A DNA stretch of 14,336 bases from Tubiluchus corallicola (Eukaryota > Animalia > Priapulida). The stretch covers positions 1 through 14,336 of the forward strand of contig JAQGDQ010002119.1 in the NCBI GenBank assembly GCA_030141605.1. The letters run 5' to 3'. The position numbers and the translations under genes are program-made. The notes below the pieces were generated by a model that was not told the DNA's origin, made no database searches, and saw nothing but the letters and a program-made list of their open reading frames with translations. Within the stretch, counting starts at the first letter, position 1. Each line of letters starts with the position of its first letter. Below are positions 1,017-14,336 of the stretch, piece after piece.

Positions 1017-1147
1017 GGCAGAAAGAGAGAGAGAAAGAGAGCGAGAAAGAGAGAGAGAGAGAGAAAGGCAGAGAGAGAAAGAGAAAGAAAAAGAGCGGAG
1101 AGAGAGGGAGAGAGCGAAAAACAGGGAATAATTTTAATTTATTAATT

Positions 1148-1246
<99 letters not shown>

Positions 1247-1249
1247 GGG
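1017..1249. repeat. (GA)n microsatellite; degenerate 5' part, pure 3' part, AT-rich interruption at about 1118-1150
   Basis: Directly visible. Confidence 0.97.
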
Positions 1250-3146: not shown

Positions 3147-4195
3147 AGTCACTCGCAAGCGTGTTCATACCAGGGAGCAAAACTTGTTGCGAGTTACTCT
3201 CCGAAAGAAAGCCTGAGCTGATGCTCACTTTTCTATTCACTGCGAGAAGTGTCGAGAGTAACTCACCAAGTAACTCAGAACCGTGTTCAGACTAGAGAGC
3301 AAAAGTTGTTGCGAGTTACTCTCCGAAAGAAAGCCAGAGCTGATGCTCACTCTTCTACTCACTCAAGTGCTGAGAGTAACTCGCCGCTGCGTTCACATTA
3401 AATAGTAACTCGCAAGCGTGTTCATACCCGGGAGCAAAACTTGTTGCGAGTTACTCTCCGAAAGAAAGCCCGAGCTGATGCTCACTCTTCTACTCACTCA
3501 AGTGCCGAGAGTAACTCGCCGCTGCATTCACATTAAATAGTAACTCTCAAGCGTGTTCATACCAGGGAGCAAAACTTGCTGCGAGTTACTCTCCGAAAGA
3601 AAGCGCGAGCTGATGCTCACTCTTCTATTCACTCAAGTGCCGAGAGTAACTCGCCGCTGCGTTCACATTAAATAGTAACTCGCAAGTGTGTTCATACCAG
3701 GGAGCAAAACTTGTTGCGAGTTACTCTCCGAAAGAAAGCCCGAGCTGATGCTCACTCTTCTACTCACTTAAGTGCCGAGAGTAACTCGCCGCTGCATTCA
3801 CATTAAATAGTAACTCTCAAGCGTGTTCATACCAGAGAGCAAAAGTTGTTGCGAGTTACTCTACGAAAAAAAGCCCCAGCTGATGCTCACTCTTCTATTC
3901 ACTCAAGTGCCGAGAGTAACTCGCCGCTGCGTTCACATTAAATAGTAACTCACAAGTGTGTTCATACCAGGGAGCAAAACTTGTTGCGAGTTACTCTCCG
4001 AAAGAAAGCCCGAGCTGATGCTCACTTTTCTATTCACTGCGAGAAGTGTCGAGAGTAACTCACCAAGTAACTCAGAACCGTGTTCAGACTAGAGAGCAAA
4101 AGTTGTTGCGAGTTACTCTCCGAAAAAAAGCCCCAGCTGATACTCACGCTTCTATTCACTCAAGTGCCGAGAGTAACTCGCCGCTGCGTTCACAC
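3147..4195. repeat. Tandem array of 8 units (135-bp and 122-bp variants) with internal inverted repeats
   Basis: GTGTTCA anchors at 3161, 3283, 3418, 3553, 3688, 3823, 3958 and 4080 (spacings 122, 135, 135, 135, 135, 135, 122). The 135-bp units contain GCGAGTTACTCTC and its reverse complement GAGAGTAACTCGC. Confidence 0.97.
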
Positions 4196-4445
4196 TAGAC
4201 AGCAACTAACAGGAAATCAACTCGCAGCAACTGTCGGCGAGTTTGCAATAACCTCATTAATGCCGTCAGCAACTTAGAAAGCAGTTCACACTTGCCTGTT
4301 TGCTGTCAGAGAAAAAACTCACCGTGTGAACGCGAATTTAGACCGTAGTTCAAAATAACATAAAGTATAAATATAGAAGGAAAATGTCGGTTTTTTAAAA
4401 AGATTTGCAAAAAATGATTACTGTAGCTGATTTCTTTTGACAATA

Positions 4446-4661: not shown

Positions 4662-6029
4662 TCACAAGTCCGCATTGACCGAGCCGTTGCCCATCAAGCT
4701 ACTGATTTCGGTGGTCCGCGTCGGATGGCACGAACTTGGAACGGTGAGAAAGTTGCCGTAGTTCTTCATCTCCGTGTGGGTTACATCACCATTCGTGCTG
4801 GAAGGCCATTCGTCCGGTTGTCGATTCGACACAGCCGATGGCGTCACCGACAACTCGTTGAACCGATACGACCGATACGCGTCGGCAATGATGACCACGT
4901 CCGTGTCCCAGGGGAGACAGGGAAGGAGCCTTTTGCACAACAATGTGATCTCCGCTTTCATTGTGGAGTTCAGCCACCCGTAGAGGAGTGGATTCCAGCA
5001 GGCGGAGCTCATGGCGATGGCGTGGCACACCGCAAACGCCAGGTACGCCGCCTGGATCACGTTGCCGCTCTTATCACCGTTCGTCAAAAGTTCGTAGTTA
5101 AAATCGGCTATGAGATTATAAATATTTAAAGGCAACCAACTTATTACAAATATGGCGGCTATTGCCACCAGCACGTTAGTGGTGCGCTGAGTCCGCCTGC
5201 GGGCTTTTTCCAACTTAATCGGGTTCACCGTGGTCTTGGCCGCATTCGTGTTCATCGAGAGACGGTGATATTTTAGGAAAAGAGTGATTTTCGCATAGCA
5301 CACGGATACGATGATCACAGGCGCCACATACTGAATTAACATCACAGACACAGTATATGCCCTGCTCATGGTATAGGACGGCCATTGCTGGAGACATTTT
5401 CTGTACAGGTCGATACCCATGAATTCCACGTGCTTGACGTCCGTGTATAGCGTCATCGGAATAGCGAACAGGAGGGCCAGAATCCAGATAGACGTGATCA
5501 CCAGGAAGCTTCCCGCTATCTGACTTGGCTTCTTGATGTGGTAGACGATCACCTTGTACCTGTCGATGGCGATGGCCGAGTAACTGAACGTGGACACGAA
5601 GACGTTCGTGGCTTGGAACGTCGGTACCATCTTGCAGACCACCATCCCAAACTGCCAGTCTCTCTTGATGAGCTGGAGCAGCGTGAAGGGCATGCATATT
5701 ACGCACAGGGTCAAGTCGGACACGGCCAGATTAGCGATGTAGATGTTCCTGGCCGTGCGAAGGTTGGGCGACTTTGCGATGAGGAACACCAGCAGGATGT
5801 TACCGACGACGCCGATGATGCCGATGAGAACATAGACCGCGATGAGCAGCGTCTCCGCGCGACGGTCCAACCACTTCTCGGAGTTGGCGTTCCTTAACTC
5901 GTTGACAAAATCTTCTAGGCTGAAGTTGACGATGTCTAGCAGAGTCTCGTTGCTGACATTGAACATTCTGAGGATGACACTCACTGGCACGTCGAGGCCA
6001 TCGTCCCGGATTGGATACACCTCGTACAT
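4662..6029 (-). CDS. NPFR: Rhodopsin-like (class A) GPCR, neuropeptide F / neuropeptide Y receptor-like; 455 aa, intronless coding region
   Basis: Seven hydrophobic segments with class A motifs: TM1 GVVGN, TM2 NLAVSD, ECL1 WQFGMVVCK, TM3 AIAIDRY, TM4 W, ECL2 Cys (KCLQQWPS), TM5 QYVAP..CY, TM6 FVISWLPL, TM7 SSACWNPLLYGWLN. The segments LRTARN.YI.NLAVSD..LC..CMP.TL and CH...MSSAC.NPLLYGWLN match what I recall of invertebrate NPF receptors. N-terminal N-glycosylation sequons NVS, NET, NFS. GPCR identity is near certain; the NPFR symbol rests on recognition and needs a phylogeny. Confidence 0.93.
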   Translation of the reverse strand: MYEVYPIRDDGLDVPVSVILRMFNVSNETLLDIVNFSLEDFVNELRNANSEKWLDRRAETLLIAVYVLIGIIGVVGNILLVFLIAKSPNLRTARNIYIANLAVSDLTLCVICMPFTLLQLIKRDWQFGMVVCKMVPTFQATNVFVSTFSYSAIAIDRYKVIVYHIKKPSQIAGSFLVITSIWILALLFAIPMTLYTDVKHVEFMGIDLYRKCLQQWPSYTMSRAYTVSVMLIQYVAPVIIVSVCYAKITLFLKYHRLSMNTNAAKTTVNPIKLEKARRRTQRTTNVLVAIAAIFVISWLPLNIYNLIADFNYELLTNGDKSGNVIQAAYLAFAVCHAIAMSSACWNPLLYGWLNSTMKAEITLLCKRLLPCLPWDTDVVIIADAYRSYRFNELSVTPSAVSNRQPDEWPSSTNGDVTHTEMKNYGNFLTVPSSCHPTRTTEISSLMGNGSVNADL

Positions 6030-6082
6030 GGTGGCAGATTATCAAGGTCTGCCCTGCAAATATAAAAGAACAACGATTAGTA
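6030..6082 (-). promoter_or_regulatory. Branch point, polypyrimidine tract and 3' splice acceptor of a 5'-UTR intron, followed by a perfect Kozak sequence
   Basis: Minus strand reads TACTAAT cgttg TTCTTTTATATTTGCAG|ggc aga cct TGA TAA tct GCCACC ATG. The acceptor AG is at 6055-6054 and the exon would start at 6053. Two in-frame stops precede the ATG at 6029, so it is the true start. Confidence 0.75.
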
Positions 6083-6630: not shown

Positions 6631-6749
6631 TTAAACAGCGAGCGTACGGAAAGCCACGACGCGCTTACGAAATGTCACAAGTGTCCCAGTTAAGTCACGA
6701 TTTTCACTTGAAAAGCTGCAACCACCAAGCCTGAAAATTTCTATACAGA

Positions 6750-7210
6750 CAAAGACAAATACAAGATTTATTGGCTAGAGCTCATTAACAGCTATTTAGT
6801 GACTTACACTTATGTGTTACACATCTGTTACTTATGTATTTTGAGAGAAATGAAAACGTGGGTGATTAAGCATAAAGAAACCACTACTGAAGCCAAACAG
6901 ATTATTTTTCTCGTTCACCTTTCTGATTTAGCAGTCCAGTGGAGATTTCCAGTTATTATGGAACATGTCCATGGTTATAAGCAATATAGAAACATGCATC
7001 ACATGCAAATCAATACTTGTTGCAGTTTACCAGGTTAACTACATGGCTGATTAGAATATTGTCACATAGTTAAAGACAACAATACGGGTAAAGAAGCAAC
7101 GAATAACATGTCGGCTATATGCCCAGGCGTTTGCAGGCAGTAGTCTCGAACTCAAGACTGCATGGTTGCAATTCGAAATCCAGACCACTCGACCACCTAA
7201 CTCAAGACCT
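6750..7210 (-). mobile_element. tRNA-derived SINE, about 460 bp
   Basis: The block is absent from the homologous copy at about 1763. The minus-strand head has an A-box-like TGGTCGAGTGG (7195-7185) and a B-box-like GAGTTCGAGAC (7153-7143), 31 nt apart, which is tRNA-like spacing. The 3' end has AATAAA (6772-6767) followed by the short-repeat tail TCTTGTATTTGTCTTTGTCTGT. Confidence 0.75.
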
Positions 7211-7278
7211 GAGGTAGTATATTTTAAATTTATATTATGTAAACCTTTTTCTGCAGATTTATTTGTTACATTTTTATT

Positions 7279-7976
7279 AGTTTAAGCGATAACTTAAAAT
7301 AAATGCAACATATTGAGTGACTTGTTCTTTCCTTTAGCACACCACAAACAGTTCAAGCGATAACAGTAAAATAAACCCAATATACGAGTGACTTGCTCTT
7401 TCCTTTAGCACACCACAAACAGTTCAAGCGATAACAGTAAAATAAACCCAACATACGAGTGACTTGTTCTTTCCTTTAGCACACCACGAACAGTTTAAGT
7501 GATAACAGTAAAATAAACCCAACATACGAGTGACTTGTTCTTTCGTTTAGCACACCACAAACAGTTTAAGTGATAACAGTAAAATAAACCGAACATACGA
7601 GTGACTTTTCTTTCCTTTAGCACACCACAAACAGTTTAAGTGATAACAGTAAAATAAACCCAACAGACGAGTGACTTGTTCTTTCCTTTAGAACACCACA
7701 AACAGTTTAAGTGATAACAGTAAAATAAACCCAACATACGAGTGACTTGCTCTTTCCTTTAGCACACCACAAACAGTTCAAGCGATAACAGTAAAATAAA
7801 CCCAACATACGAGTGACTTGCTCTTTCCTTTAGCACACCACAAACAGTTCAAGCGATAACAGTAAAATAAACCCAACGTACTGAGTGACTTGTTCTTTCC
7901 TTTAGCACACCACAAACAGTTTAAGTGATAACAGTAAAATGAACCCAACGTACTGAGTGACTTGTTCTTTTCTTTA
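7279..7976. repeat. Tandem array of about 10 units of 71 bp
   Basis: GTGACTT anchors at 7317, 7388, 7459, 7530, 7601, 7671, 7742, 7813, 7885 and 7957 (spacing 70-72). Confidence 0.97.
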
Positions 7977-9534: not shown

Positions 9535-10442
9535 AGTTCATTTCACAGTGAAACCACGTGTTCTAGTTAGTTGCAGCTACTTTGCGAGTTTTATACTTCA
9601 TACCCAAGTCTAAGTTAAGTTATACTTGCTGTATTTCTCATATACAAAGTACAATTAATAATGTTAGTCAATGTAATATCAGACCTGTTTGTTGTTTTTT
9701 TGTAAAAGTTCTACTAACCATTTCAAAATCTGAAAATGTACATATATAAAATAAATATATGTGTGCGTTATTTTTCTTTTTCACGAATATGGCCCTCGAT
9801 GTTGTATTAATAAAACATAAAATCAGTTTGTTAAAAGAGAGATTAAGTCTTGTAATTTTATGCTGAAATGCGTTATTTGTTGTTCTTTGAATAAGAGAGA
9901 AATTTAAGGCTGAATTCCTCGAGGATTCCTCACGAAAGCGGAACATGCAGTATTCTTGACAGGTGGCAAAATTCCTCACGAGGGGGACGCATAGCTTCTA
10001 GTTGGTGGCAAAATTCCTCACGAGGGGGACGCATAGCTTCTAGTTGGTGGCAGAATTCCTCACGAGGAGGACACAGCTTCTAGTTGGCGGCAGATTTCCT
10101 TACAACGAGGACGCACAGCTTCTAGTTGGTGGCAGAATTCCTCACGAGGGGGACGCATAGCTTCTAGTTGGTGGCAGAATTCCTCACGAGGAGGACGCAC
10201 AGCTTCCAGTTGGCGGCAGAATTCCTCACGAGGAGGACACAGCTTCTAGTTGGCGGCAGATTTCCTTACAACGAGGACGCACAGCTTCTAGTTGGTGGCA
10301 GAATTCCTCACGAGGAGGACGCACAGCTTCTAGTTGGCGGCAGAATTCCTCACGAGGAGGACGCTTAGCTTCTAGCTGAGGACAGAATTTCTCACGAGGA
10401 GCTGCACAAGGAATTTTGCGAGTCCTCACTGTGAAATGGACA
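9535..10442. mobile_element. Possible PIF/Harbinger-like non-autonomous element enclosing the 42-bp array
   Basis: GTTCATTTCACAGTGA (9536-9551) versus the reverse complement of 10426-10441, GTCCATTTCACAGTGA (15/16). The flanks TGA and TTA are compatible with a decayed TWA target duplication. Confidence 0.4.
9962..10400. repeat. Minisatellite, about 10.5 units of 42 bp (two of 40 bp)
   Basis: Unit GGYGGCAGAATTCCTCACGAGGAGGACGCACAGCTTCTAGTT starts at 9962, 10004, 10046, 10086, 10128, 10170, 10212, 10252, 10294, 10336 and 10378. Confidence 0.97.
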
Positions 10443-11138: not shown

Positions 11139-12315
11139 TGTAACAACAACAATAATAGTAAACAGGAGCAATGACAGTAACAGTCACGCTGCAAAAGCAA
11201 CAGCAGTAACAACAATAACAGTAACTGTAATAAGTAGCAGTAACAGTTACACTAATGGTAAAAGTAACAGCAGTAACAACAACAACAGTAACAGTAAGAA
11301 GTAGCAGTAACAGTTACACTAATGGTAAAAGTAACAGCAGTAACAACAGTAACGGGAACAGTAAGAAGTAGCAGTAACAGTTACACTAATGGTAAAAATA
11401 ACAGCAGTAACAACAATAACAGTAACACAAGAAGTAGCAGTAACAGTTACACTAATGGTAAAGGTAACAGCAGTAACAACAAAAACAGTAACAGTAACAG
11501 TAACATTTACACTAATGGTAAAAGTAACAGCAGTAACAACAACAACAGTAACAGTAAGAAGTAGCAGTAACATTTACACTAATGGTAAAAGTAACAGCAG
11601 AAGAACAGTAACAGTAACAGTAAGAAGTAGCAGTAACAGTTACACTAATGGTAAAAGTAACAGCAGTAACAACAACAACAGTAACAATAAGAAGAAGCAG
11701 TAACAGTTACACTAATGGTAAAAGTAACAGCAGTAACAACAAAAACAGTAACAGTAAGAAGCAGCAGTAACATTTACACTAATGGTAAAAGTAACAGCAG
11801 AAGAACAGTAACAGTAACAGTAAGAAGTAGCAGTAACAGTTACACTAATGGTAAAAGTAACAGCAGAAGAACAGTAACAGGAACAGTAAGAAGTAGCAGT
11901 AACAGTTACACTAATGGTAAAAATAACAGCAGTAACAACAATAACAGTAACACAAGAAGTAGCAGTAACAGTTACACTAATGGTAAAGGTAACAGCAGTA
12001 ACAACAAAAACAGTAACAGTAACAGTAACATTTACACTAATGGTAAAAGTAACAGCAGAAAACAAAAAGTAACAGCAGTAACAACAACAACAGTAACAAT
12101 AAGAAGAAGCAGTAACAGTTACACTAATGGTAAAAGTAACAGCAGTAACAACAGTAACGGGAACAGTAAGAAGTAGCAGTAACAGTTACACTAATGGTAA
12201 AAGTAACAGCAGAAGAACAGTAACAGTAACAGTAAGAAGTAGCAGTAACAGTTACACTAATGGTAAAAGTAACAGCAGTAACAACAAAAACAGTAACAGT
12301 AACAGCAGTAGTAAC
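11139..12315. repeat. Minisatellite of 16 units of about 66-67 bp built from AGTAAC/AAC/AGC sub-repeats
   Basis: ACTAATGGTAA anchors at 11251, 11318, 11385, 11451, 11511, 11578, 11644, 11711, 11778, 11844, 11910, 11976, 12036, 12123, 12190 and 12256. Confidence 0.97.
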
Positions 12316-12777: not shown

Positions 12778-13388
<611 letters not shown>

Positions 13389-13671
13389 AATAATAATAAT
13401 AATTATTATTATTATTCTTTATTTAAAATTTAAAATTGAACGCATATACAAATATTTACATAAAATACATACAGGGACCCTCTATTTGCAGGGTATGGTT
13501 AAAAAAACTTTGTAAATAAAATAGCTGTTATATTCGCAAGACTTTTAAATACCAATAAATCAATATACCAATAAAAGAACAACTAAAATCAAATAGTACC
13601 AATTTACACAATTTACACAAAACGACCTGTATAATATAAAAGTGACAGATATAATATAAAAGTTCAATATT

Positions 13672-14004
13672 TTATACTAAAGTTTGTAAAAACGAATCAC
13701 AAACTAACTCAGAGAAAGCAACTAGCAGGTTTTTGTCTCGAGAGGTATAAATTTTACTAATGTTTTGAAATTGTAGGATATTTGCGAGCGCTAATCTTTT
13801 ATTTTCGTCGACCAAAGTACAATTAAAAAGCAAATGTTCAACTGTTTGTGCTTCCTCTGAGCATATACAGGCATTTTCGTGTATGTATCCAATTTTAAAA
13901 AGAAAATCTTTAAAGTTACCTTGCCCTAATAAAATACTACAAGATAGTTTTTCTAGCCTTCTGCTATTTGTATGAAAAGGAAGGTCTAGCGGAGTTAAAA
14001 ATAC
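13672..14004 (-). pseudogene. LINE ORF2 C-terminal fragment, about 110 codons, no start codon, absent from the ORF track
   Basis: Manual translation: VFLTPLDLPFHTNSRRLEKLSCSILLGQGNFKDFLFKIGYIHENACICSEEAQTVEHLLFNCTLVDENKRLALANILQFQNISKIYTSRDKNLLVAFSELVCDSFLQTLV*. The segment LLGQGNF..FL.KIG......C.C.....TVEHLLFNC matches the LTGHG.F..YL.R.G......C.CG...ET..H....C signature of R1/I-group ORF2 proteins. Confidence 0.85.
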
Positions 14005-14088
14005 ATTAGACCTTCCTTTTCATACAAATAGCAGAAGGCTAGAAAAACTATCTTGTAGTATTTTATTAGGGCAAGGTAACTTTAAAGA
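13907..14088. repeat. Perfect inverted repeat: 82-bp arms (13907-13988 and 14007-14088) with an 18-bp spacer
   Basis: Base-by-base comparison found no mismatch between the left arm and the reverse complement of the right arm. Confidence 0.98.
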
Positions 14089-14120
14089 GGGTGAGAGAGC
14101 GAGAGAGAGAGAGAGGGAGA

Positions 14121-14167
<47 letters not shown>

Positions 14168-14172
14168 AAGAG

Positions 14173-14240
<68 letters not shown>

Positions 14241-14301
14241 AGAGTGAGAGAGAGTGAGTGAGAGAGAGGGAGAGTGAGAGAGAGGGAGAGAGACAGAGAG
14301 A

Positions 14302-14336
<35 letters not shown>
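14089..14336. repeat. (GA)n microsatellite running to the end of the window
   Basis: Directly visible. Confidence 0.98.

What the first reader, a model, noticed from the sequence alone, without database searches (positions are those of the whole stretch)
13907..14088. Perfect 82-bp fold-back at the LINE 5' truncation point, consistent with cDNA snap-back during integration
Seen: the left arm and the 18-bp spacer belong to the continuous ORF2 frame. The right arm is an exact inverted copy of sequence already present and joins the (GA)n flank through ...AAAGA. Known: classic twin-priming inversions bring in upstream element sequence, whereas here only already-copied sequence is duplicated. Inference: the plus strand is the first-strand cDNA. 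It was primed in the left (GA)n tract, stopped near 14006-14010, folded back on itself (TAGA pairing with TCTA at 13985-13988), copied 82 nt, then joined the target via AGA microhomology. Zero mismatches point to a very recent event.
Basis: partly seen in the sequence, partly recalled or inferred. Interest (0 to 1): 0.7.

Follow-up and report, generated by a model that had tools for sequence, protein, structure and literature searches.

The report
Fold-back scars on a truncated LINE
A short, front-truncated jumping-gene copy inside a GA repeat of an invertebrate genome carries a perfect 82-base mirror copy of itself at its front end and a 16-base one at its tail; the front one is likely a scar left when the new DNA folded back and copied itself before being joined in, a kind of scar already known from other retrotransposons and not confirmed here by independent sequencing.

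Summary
The 82-bp perfect inverted repeat is in the sequence as described. It caps a ~600-bp 5'-truncated LINE (CCHC knuckle, (TAA)n tail) inside a (GA)n tract of an invertebrate. Contigs of four public runs show the family runs on past 14007 without the repeat, so the hairpin is copy-specific. With the commoner family letter at 13990, a 4-bp stem forms in exactly this register, best of 97. No contig of the four runs bridges the loop, so the junction is unconfirmed (artefact about 0.18). cDNA snap-back followed by microhomology joining is the best reading; it is a described junction class for R2 insertions (PMC11371274, PMC11204384) and matches snap-back SD-MMEJ (PMC5728401). This scan has noted similar fold-back scars in other genomes. 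Most novel reading left open: both ends folded back and a free LINE DNA was captured at a break (0.15). Interest 0.22.

The parts
12779..13388 (+). Left (GA)n tract; target DNA on the element's 3' side
   Evidence: TRF period 2, 305 copies, 91% matches
13387..13418 (.). Perfect zero-spacer palindrome, 16+16 nt: inverted copy of the element's last 16 nt, tail to tail with the tail itself; (AAT)5 and (ATT)5 share AT at 13402-13403
   Evidence: the only (AAT)/(ATT) runs of 4 or more units in the window
13402..13416 (-). LINE 3' tail, (AAT)5 on the sense strand
   Evidence: other copies show the same kind of tail (loose end at 13443 in X2)
13417..13671 (-). LINE 3' UTR, with AATAAA at 13418-13423 and a 9-bp tandem duplication at 13600-13620 that a family contig of X4 lacks
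   Evidence: table 4
13672..14007 (-). Last ~110 codons of ORF2, open to the stop; C-X-C-X8-H-X4-C knuckle at 13819-13869
   Evidence: Pfam zf-RVT E 4.9e-4, 21.1 bits, under the 27.5 cut-off; 30 relatives at E up to 1e-3, some with RT plus APE or RNase H
13907..13988 (+). Left arm: native ORF2 sequence, the inferred template of the fold-back
13989..14006 (+). 18-nt spacer: native ORF2 sequence; inferred primer stem 13988-13991 with 14004-14007
14007..14088 (+). Right arm: exact inverted duplicate of the left arm; 14007 is the last base shared with the family
14086..14088 (+). AGA, inferred microhomology with the (GA)n target
   Evidence: empty site not seen
14089..14336 (+). Right (GA)n tract, same orientation as the left; runs to the window end

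Best explanation
A 5'-truncated LINE copy sits in a (GA)n microsatellite with an exact 82-nt inverted duplicate of its own front end, which likely formed when the first-strand cDNA folded back, primed on itself and was then joined to the target. Steps: (1) shown: the + strand equals the cDNA strand and departs from the family after 14007. (2) Inferred: reverse transcription stopped at 14006-14007. (3) Inferred: the free 3' end (CATT) paired with 13988-13991 through a weak stem of 1 to 4 bp, which would need a protein to hold it (predicted +2.9 kcal/mol at best). (4) Inferred: a DNA polymerase (Pol theta-like, or the element's RT) copied 82 nt until the new end read AGA. (5) Inferred: the hairpin was unwound, AGA annealed to the (TC)n strand of the right target end, and fill-in fixed the repeat. 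It is a one-off repair scar on a dead fragment, with no sign of function. The 16-nt palindrome at the tail is left unexplained by this reading (an (AAT)n island already in the target, or a second small template switch).
For: Exact arms, inverted piece wholly within copied sequence. Family continues without the repeat in X1-X4. Both arms carry C at 13924 where most family depth has T (7308 of 9890 in X1, 143 of 143 in X4), as expected for self-copying. With the commoner family letter at 13990 (loose ends: 3 contigs in X1, 1 in X2, 1 in X3) the observed register gives 4 contiguous pairs, the only one of 97 registers within 100 nt and 4 of 597 overall; background 2%. Stop at AGA: 4 of the first 82 and 13 of 586 positions would give a 3-nt match. 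The flank after the arm returns to the orientation of the left tract, which needs two switches. Precedent: snap-back junction class in R2 insertions, template most often the cDNA itself (PMC11371274, PMC11204384; passages); snap-back SD-MMEJ with primers down to 1 nt and up to 25 nt apart (PMC5728401; passages); 52-220 bp fold-back synthesis at L1 sites (PMC10191854; passage).
Against: No contig in 4 runs (2 samples at most) bridges loop and right arm; the loop is covered at the flat depth of one family contig per run, each running on as family sequence. With the window's own letter at 13990 the stem is 2 bp, matched or beaten by 23 of 97 registers, and that letter also exists in another copy (record 1), so the 4-bp stem rests on an inferred source letter and was noticed after the fact. 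The arm's exact sequence is shared by a multi-copy subfamily (contigs at depth 2412-3256 against 68-197 for diverged copies in X1), so identity of the arms does not prove self-copying. No empty site and no clear target-site duplication. One locus only.
Confidence: 0.5

Rival explanations
1. Library or assembly artefact: a fold-back chimera from whole-genome amplification or long-read preparation, or a mis-join between (GA)n tracts.
For: No contig of X1-X4 bridges the loop; the best run holds only 0.75 of the element's sampled words; library type unknown; inverted chimeras are the dominant MDA artefact (PMC9984789; passages); the element is walled in by long GA tracts.
Against: After 82 nt the sequence returns to the original orientation, so two switches are needed; MDA inverted chimeras typically show 5-8 nt overlap and a distance peak at 250-300 nt, against 1-4 nt and 18 nt here; the fold sits at the point where the element ends; a share of 0.64-0.75 suggests (inference) that these runs are other individuals, where a polymorphic insertion would be absent anyway.
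Confidence: 0.18
2. Double-ended capture: a free, double-stranded LINE DNA fragment had both 3' ends fold back and self-prime until each made a 3-nt match to (GA)n/(TC)n, and was then patched into a break in the microsatellite by SD-MMEJ-type joining, without ordinary target priming at the tail.
For: Both ends are perfect palindromes or hairpins; the tail-side copy stops at the first position (16) that gives TCT, the front-side copy at a position giving AGA; no other (AAT)/(ATT) run of 4 or more units in the window; no clear target-site duplication; ordinary priming would give a direct, not inverted, continuation of the tail (inference).
Against: The tail palindrome is low-complexity; an (AAT)5 island already in the target, cut and primed through the shared AT at 13402-13403, gives the same letters; AT-rich islands occur in GA tracts here (1115-1150). 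The runs could not test this end (13372-13427 skipped as repeat).
Confidence: 0.15
3. Twin priming with complete overlap: the second target end primed on the RNA at 13907-13909 (TCT on AGA), made 82 nt of cDNA, the first cDNA ran 100 nt past that point, and the two cDNA ends annealed. The final sequence is the same.
For: AGA/TCT match at the flank junction; internal duplications occur in 283 of 1703 human L1 5' inversions (10.1101/2024.08.27.596794; passage); the same weak stem could join two cDNA ends.
Against: Those duplications are short (median 22 bp) and the inverted pieces much longer (median 0.54 kb); here no upstream sequence is brought in and the first RT would have to displace the whole second cDNA. 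In cell assays 5' inversions were nearly confined to L1 in human cells and came with 10-20 bp target-site duplications (PMC4245944; passages), which are absent here.
Confidence: 0.1
4. A later break-repair or replication template switch inside an older, longer copy: the 5' part was deleted and a snap-back patch joined the rest to a GA tract.
For: Short inverted duplications with 1-15 bp microhomology are a common variant class unrelated to transposition (277 events, median 284 bp, in PMC12350158; passages); no target-site duplication; the copy differs from family contigs at several places.
Against: Needs a deletion that ends by chance in GA repeat of the same orientation; truncation near the 3' end is the ordinary outcome of LINE insertion (established knowledge).
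Confidence: 0.07

Closest known systems
Snap-back 5' junctions of R2-protein insertions (PRINT; PMC11371274, PMC11204384; passages and figure legends read)
   Same: cDNA 3' end primes further synthesis on the cDNA itself, then antisense sequence joins the upstream target.
   Different: Those are engineered insertions in human cells at rDNA; this is a natural fragment of a different LINE group in a (GA)n tract, with both junctions in one assembled sequence and a second palindrome at the tail.
Snap-back SD-MMEJ in Drosophila (PMC5728401; passages read)
   Same: Short inverted primer repeat, synthesis that creates a microhomology, result is a longer inverted repeat; 1-nt primers and spacings up to 25 nt are reported.
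   Different: Described at nuclease cuts with limited synthesis and favoured primers of 3-4 nt under 10 nt apart; here 82 nt and an 18-nt spacer at a retrotransposon end; polymerase not identified.
Fold-back inverted duplications at human L1 sites (PMC10191854; 10.1101/2024.12.14.628481; passages read)
   Same: 52-220 bp of extra synthesis, about 2-bp primers, small hairpins, rare (3 events, 0.3%, in PMC10191854).
   Different: There the flanking genomic DNA folds back; here the element's own sequence does.
Twin-priming 5' inversion with internal duplication (10.1101/2024.08.27.596794; passages read)
   Same: Inverted element sequence at the 5' end with microhomology at both joints.
   Different: Duplications are short and the inverted part is far longer; here it is fully nested in copied sequence.

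Membership tests
Non-LTR retrotransposon (LINE), 5'-truncated copy | ORF2 C-terminal CCHC knuckle | tested here: met
   C-X-C-X8-H-X4-C, aligned in relatives; zf-RVT E 4.9e-4, under the curated cut-off
Non-LTR retrotransposon (LINE), 5'-truncated copy | Relatives carry reverse transcriptase with APE or RNase H | tested here: met
   Of 12 relatives scanned (of 30 found), 4 hit RVT_1, 2 of them with APE, and 3 hit RNase H; the 5 closest or shortest had no family. Matches to the long ones are weak (E 1e-5 to 1e-4)
Non-LTR retrotransposon (LINE), 5'-truncated copy | Simple-repeat 3' tail; multi-copy family with depth falling toward the 5' side | tested here: met
   (AAT)5 tail after AATAAA; 504, 509, 492 and 68 contigs laid in X1-X4
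Non-LTR retrotransposon (LINE), 5'-truncated copy | Target-site duplication | tested here: inconclusive
   Best candidate 5 nt, AAGAG at 13382-13386 and 14085-14089, in low-complexity DNA
A named LINE clade (R1, I, Loa, Ingi, Nimb) | RT-domain phylogeny | not testable with these tools
   The copy holds no RT domain; no genome is held; relatives include both R1-like and RNase H-bearing proteins (the clade labels are recalled)
Snap-back 5' junction (R2 PRINT definition) | [quoted passage not shown] | tested here: met
Snap-back 5' junction (R2 PRINT definition) | Antisense piece is joined to upstream target DNA | tested here: inconclusive
   Joined to (GA)n in target orientation; empty site not seen; 14084-14128 skipped as repeat
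Snap-back 5' junction (R2 PRINT definition) | Junction exists in genomic molecules | tested here: inconclusive
   0 of 4 runs bridge the loop; contigs only, likely other individuals
Snap-back SD-MMEJ | Inverted primer repeat near the end | tested here: inconclusive
   1 Watson-Crick pair plus G.T with the window's letters; 4 pairs with the commoner family letter
Snap-back SD-MMEJ | Synthesis ends in a microhomology with the other end | tested here: met
   AGA, 13 of 586 positions, assuming the target was (GA)n there
Snap-back SD-MMEJ | Dependence on Pol theta | not testable with these tools
   Needs genetics
Twin-priming 5' inversion | Inverted part brings in element sequence upstream of the non-inverted part | tested here: not met
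   Inverted part is nested in 13403-14007; upstream family sequence is absent
Twin-priming 5' inversion | 10-20 bp target-site duplication | tested here: not met
   Longest candidate 5 nt; expectation from PMC4245944
MDA inverted chimera | Amplified library; single switch with 5-8 nt overlap | tested here: inconclusive
   Library not on record; two switches and 1-4 nt overlap here
(GA)n-targeting LINE family | Most copies flanked by (GA)n | tested here: inconclusive
   None of the 24 loose ends shown (of 142) is a GA tract, but repeats are skipped or filtered

The most novel reading that the evidence does not exclude
Both ends of this LINE fragment are fold-back scars: a free LINE DNA duplex self-primed at both 3' ends until each produced the AGA/TCT needed to pair with a broken (GA)n tract, and was captured there with no target priming at the tail. 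That would be a fossil of a dumbbell-like, primer-independent route of LINE insertion into microsatellite breaks, recognisable genome-wide by tail-to-tail (AAT)n(ATT)n palindromes paired with 5' hairpins and no target-site duplication.
Probability: 0.15. Interest if true: 0.5.

Novelty: new member of a known kind. Interest (0 to 1): 0.22.

Why it matters
How the 5' end of a LINE is joined is still debated, and cDNA snap-back has been described mainly in engineered R2 insertions. A natural germline example in an invertebrate would show that the same repair route acts on wild elements, but one unconfirmed locus adds little. It would matter more if a genome-wide count showed that fold-backs at both ends go together, since that would point to capture of free LINE DNA at microsatellite breaks instead of target-primed insertion.

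Tried and rejected
Whole genome: none held, so no count of junctions in other copies and no empty site. Homologue search with the ORF2 piece among longer proteins: 0 of 359 candidates. Metagenome scans for other copies: 212 pattern matches, none confirmed; 0 exact matches. Fold-back joints in other copies: one search lists 2 joints (both skips) and 4 rows with letters between; the three rows that go back (13728 to 13696 twice, 13709 to 13689) read as direct tandem duplications because the letters between match 13692-13694 and 13679-13687 on the + strand; no strand change is listed, but contigs drop rare variants and only the last 600 nt were probed, so this shows no rate. Idea that the family itself holds the repeat: rejected. 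TAGA primer: rejected. Idea that the right tract is a copy of the left one (similar interruptions GG, CG, GG, GG at 13224-13266 and 14090-14124): permutation p = 0.084, not accepted. Literature: 'twin switching' 0 papers; inverted tail or palindrome at LINE 3' ends 0 papers with 3 of 5 terms; some searches found snap-back and fold-back at 5' ends or flanks only. These searches cover an open-access library and narrow terms, so they do not show that double fold-backs are unreported. PMC2718515, PMC13580325 and 10.1101/2025.09.17.676864 had no passage on snap-back. McIntyre 2025, Ostertag and Kazazian 2001 and Gilbert 2005 were not held and were seen only as citations. No supplements were opened; length and primer data for R2 snap-backs (Extended Data Fig. 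7 of PMC11371274, legend only) may bear on how typical 82 nt is. Earlier findings by place and by sequence: none.

Full report
Observation. The repeat is as described: arms 13907-13988 and 14007-14088, 82 nt, fully complementary, 18 nt apart. The finished hairpin folds at -91.6 kcal/mol as DNA. The next longest perfect hairpin arm in the window is 16 nt, at 13387-13418, with no spacer, and it lies at the other end of the same element.

The element. On the - strand an open frame runs 13672-14019 and holds a C-X-C-X8-H-X4-C knuckle (Pfam zf-RVT E 4.9e-4, under cut-off). A full-library search gave 30 relatives at E up to 1e-3; of 12 scanned, 4 hit RVT_1 (2 with an APE domain) and 3 hit RNase H. 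After the stop come a 255-nt 3' UTR, AATAAA and an (AAT)5 tail. This is the last 600 nt of a LINE; no clade can be given without an RT domain. It lies between two (GA)n tracts of the same orientation. An intronless neuropeptide F receptor-like gene at 4662-6038 has its best named hits among protostome animals, so the host is an invertebrate. No genome is held.

What the family looks like. Four public runs (three of one sample, one of another study; contigs only) hold 0.64-0.75 of the element's sampled words. Laid on 13372-14112, they gave 504, 509, 492 and 68 contigs, with depth falling toward the 5' side: a multi-copy family. Contigs exact to the arm have depth 2412-3256 in X1 against 68-197 for the eight diverged pieces listed; depth is a rough guide only, but the arm sequence belongs to a young multi-copy subfamily. 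At 14007 family contigs leave the window and continue TTCAGG (X2, X3, X4) or, in one diverged copy, TCAAGG (X1-X3). So the spacer is native, the family has no inverted repeat, and the cDNA ended at 14006-14007.

A better primer. Contigs in X1 (3), X2 (1) and X3 (1) show T at 13990 where the window has C; the listed one has depth 3256. With T, the end at 14007 pairs A-T, G.T, T-A, G-C with 13988-13991, the only register of 97 within 100 nt that reaches 4 pairs (4 of 597 over the element; background 2%). With the window's C it reaches 2 pairs, as do 23 of 97. The stem is unstable on its own (+2.9 kcal/mol). This was noticed after the fact, and C also occurs in another copy (record 1), so it is a lead in favour of priming by annealing, and it fits twin priming as well as snap-back.

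The outer joint. The arm ends in AGA. A strand copied back from the loop would end in a 3-nt match to (GA)n at 4 of the first 82 and 13 of 586 positions. That favours microhomology joining, provided the target was GA repeat there. No convincing target-site duplication exists; the best candidate is 5 nt.

Is it real? In one search (63 contigs laid, 25 pieces listed) the loop is covered at flat depth 175.6, 17, 16.4 and 52.7, one contig per run, each with a loose end at 14007 that continues as family sequence. No contig bridges loop and right arm. Both outer junctions were skipped as repeats. Since the deepest run lacks a quarter of the element's words, these are probably other individuals (inference), and a polymorphic insertion would be missing there. 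Against a chimera: orientation is restored after 82 nt, and overlap and distance differ from typical MDA chimeras (PMC9984789; passages). The artefact reading stays at about 0.18. 'Very recent' is not established: 0 of 82 bounds arm divergence only below 3.6%.

The tail palindrome. On the + strand the left tract is followed by (AAT)5 and then the tail's (ATT)5, sharing AT at 13402-13403; the palindrome extends to AGA/TCT on both sides. Target priming would continue the tail directly, not inverted (inference). Either the target already held an (AAT)5 island and primed through AT, or the sense strand's 3' end also folded back; in that case it stopped at the first position giving TCT (position 16). 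These are the only (AAT)/(ATT) runs of 4 or more units in the window, but an AT-rich island sits in the GA tract at 1115-1150. One low-complexity end cannot decide this.

Mechanism. Best reading (0.5): RT stops, the cDNA end snaps back, 82 nt are copied, AGA pairs with the target, fill-in follows. Rivals: artefact (0.18), double-ended capture of free LINE DNA (0.15), twin priming with full overlap (0.10), later repair (0.07). Twin priming gives the same letters but its duplications have a median of 22 bp (10.1101/2024.08.27.596794; passage) and come with 10-20 bp duplications of the target (PMC4245944; passages).

What is known. 'Snap-back' is a named 5' junction class for R2-protein insertions, with the cDNA as the commonest template and later joining to upstream target (PMC11371274; PMC11204384; passages). 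Its reference list cites Pol theta work beside twin priming for it. Snap-back SD-MMEJ explains 1-4 nt primers and synthesis that makes a microhomology (PMC5728401; passages). Fold-backs of flanking DNA at L1 sites are rare but described (PMC10191854; 10.1101/2024.12.14.628481). Earlier notes of this scan record similar scars of flanking DNA at LINE, CR1 and Penelope junctions in other genomes (unchecked). I found no paper on fold-backs at both ends of one insertion (open-access library, narrow terms).

Verdict. New member of a known kind; interest 0.22.

Noticed in passing
window 4662-6038 (-): Intronless neuropeptide F receptor-like GPCR, 458-aa frame (7tm_1 E 1.4e-49); closest unnamed relative 61% identical, best named hits 35-46% (Ixodes, Priapulus).
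   Followed up: partly
window 3147-4230: Array of 135-bp units (92% alike) with 13-bp internal inverted repeats 48 nt apart in each unit, bounded by 122-bp variants; resembles a transposon-derived minisatellite (recalled resemblance).
   Followed up: no
window 7279-7976 and 1828-1885: 71-bp tandem array (about 10 copies) with one dispersed unit 5.4 kb away; 1693-1801 also resembles 6679-6754 and 7211-7250, suggesting two copies of one repeat element on either side of the GPCR gene.
   Followed up: no
window 9962-10401 and 11193-12305: 42-bp minisatellite with a 124/166-bp higher-order pattern, and a 67-bp minisatellite built from AACAGT-like units.
   Followed up: no
window 1020-1247: A third (GA)n tract with a 35-nt AT-rich island at 1115-1150 that holds short palindromes; could be a remnant like the tail palindrome.
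   Followed up: no
window 13224-13266 and 14090-14124: Similar order of interruptions (GG, CG, GG, GG) in the left tract and at the start of the right tract; permutation p = 0.084.
   Followed up: yes
window 13679-13728 (family contigs): Other copies of the LINE carry short direct tandem duplications around the ORF2 stop, seen in X1, X3 and X4.
   Followed up: partly
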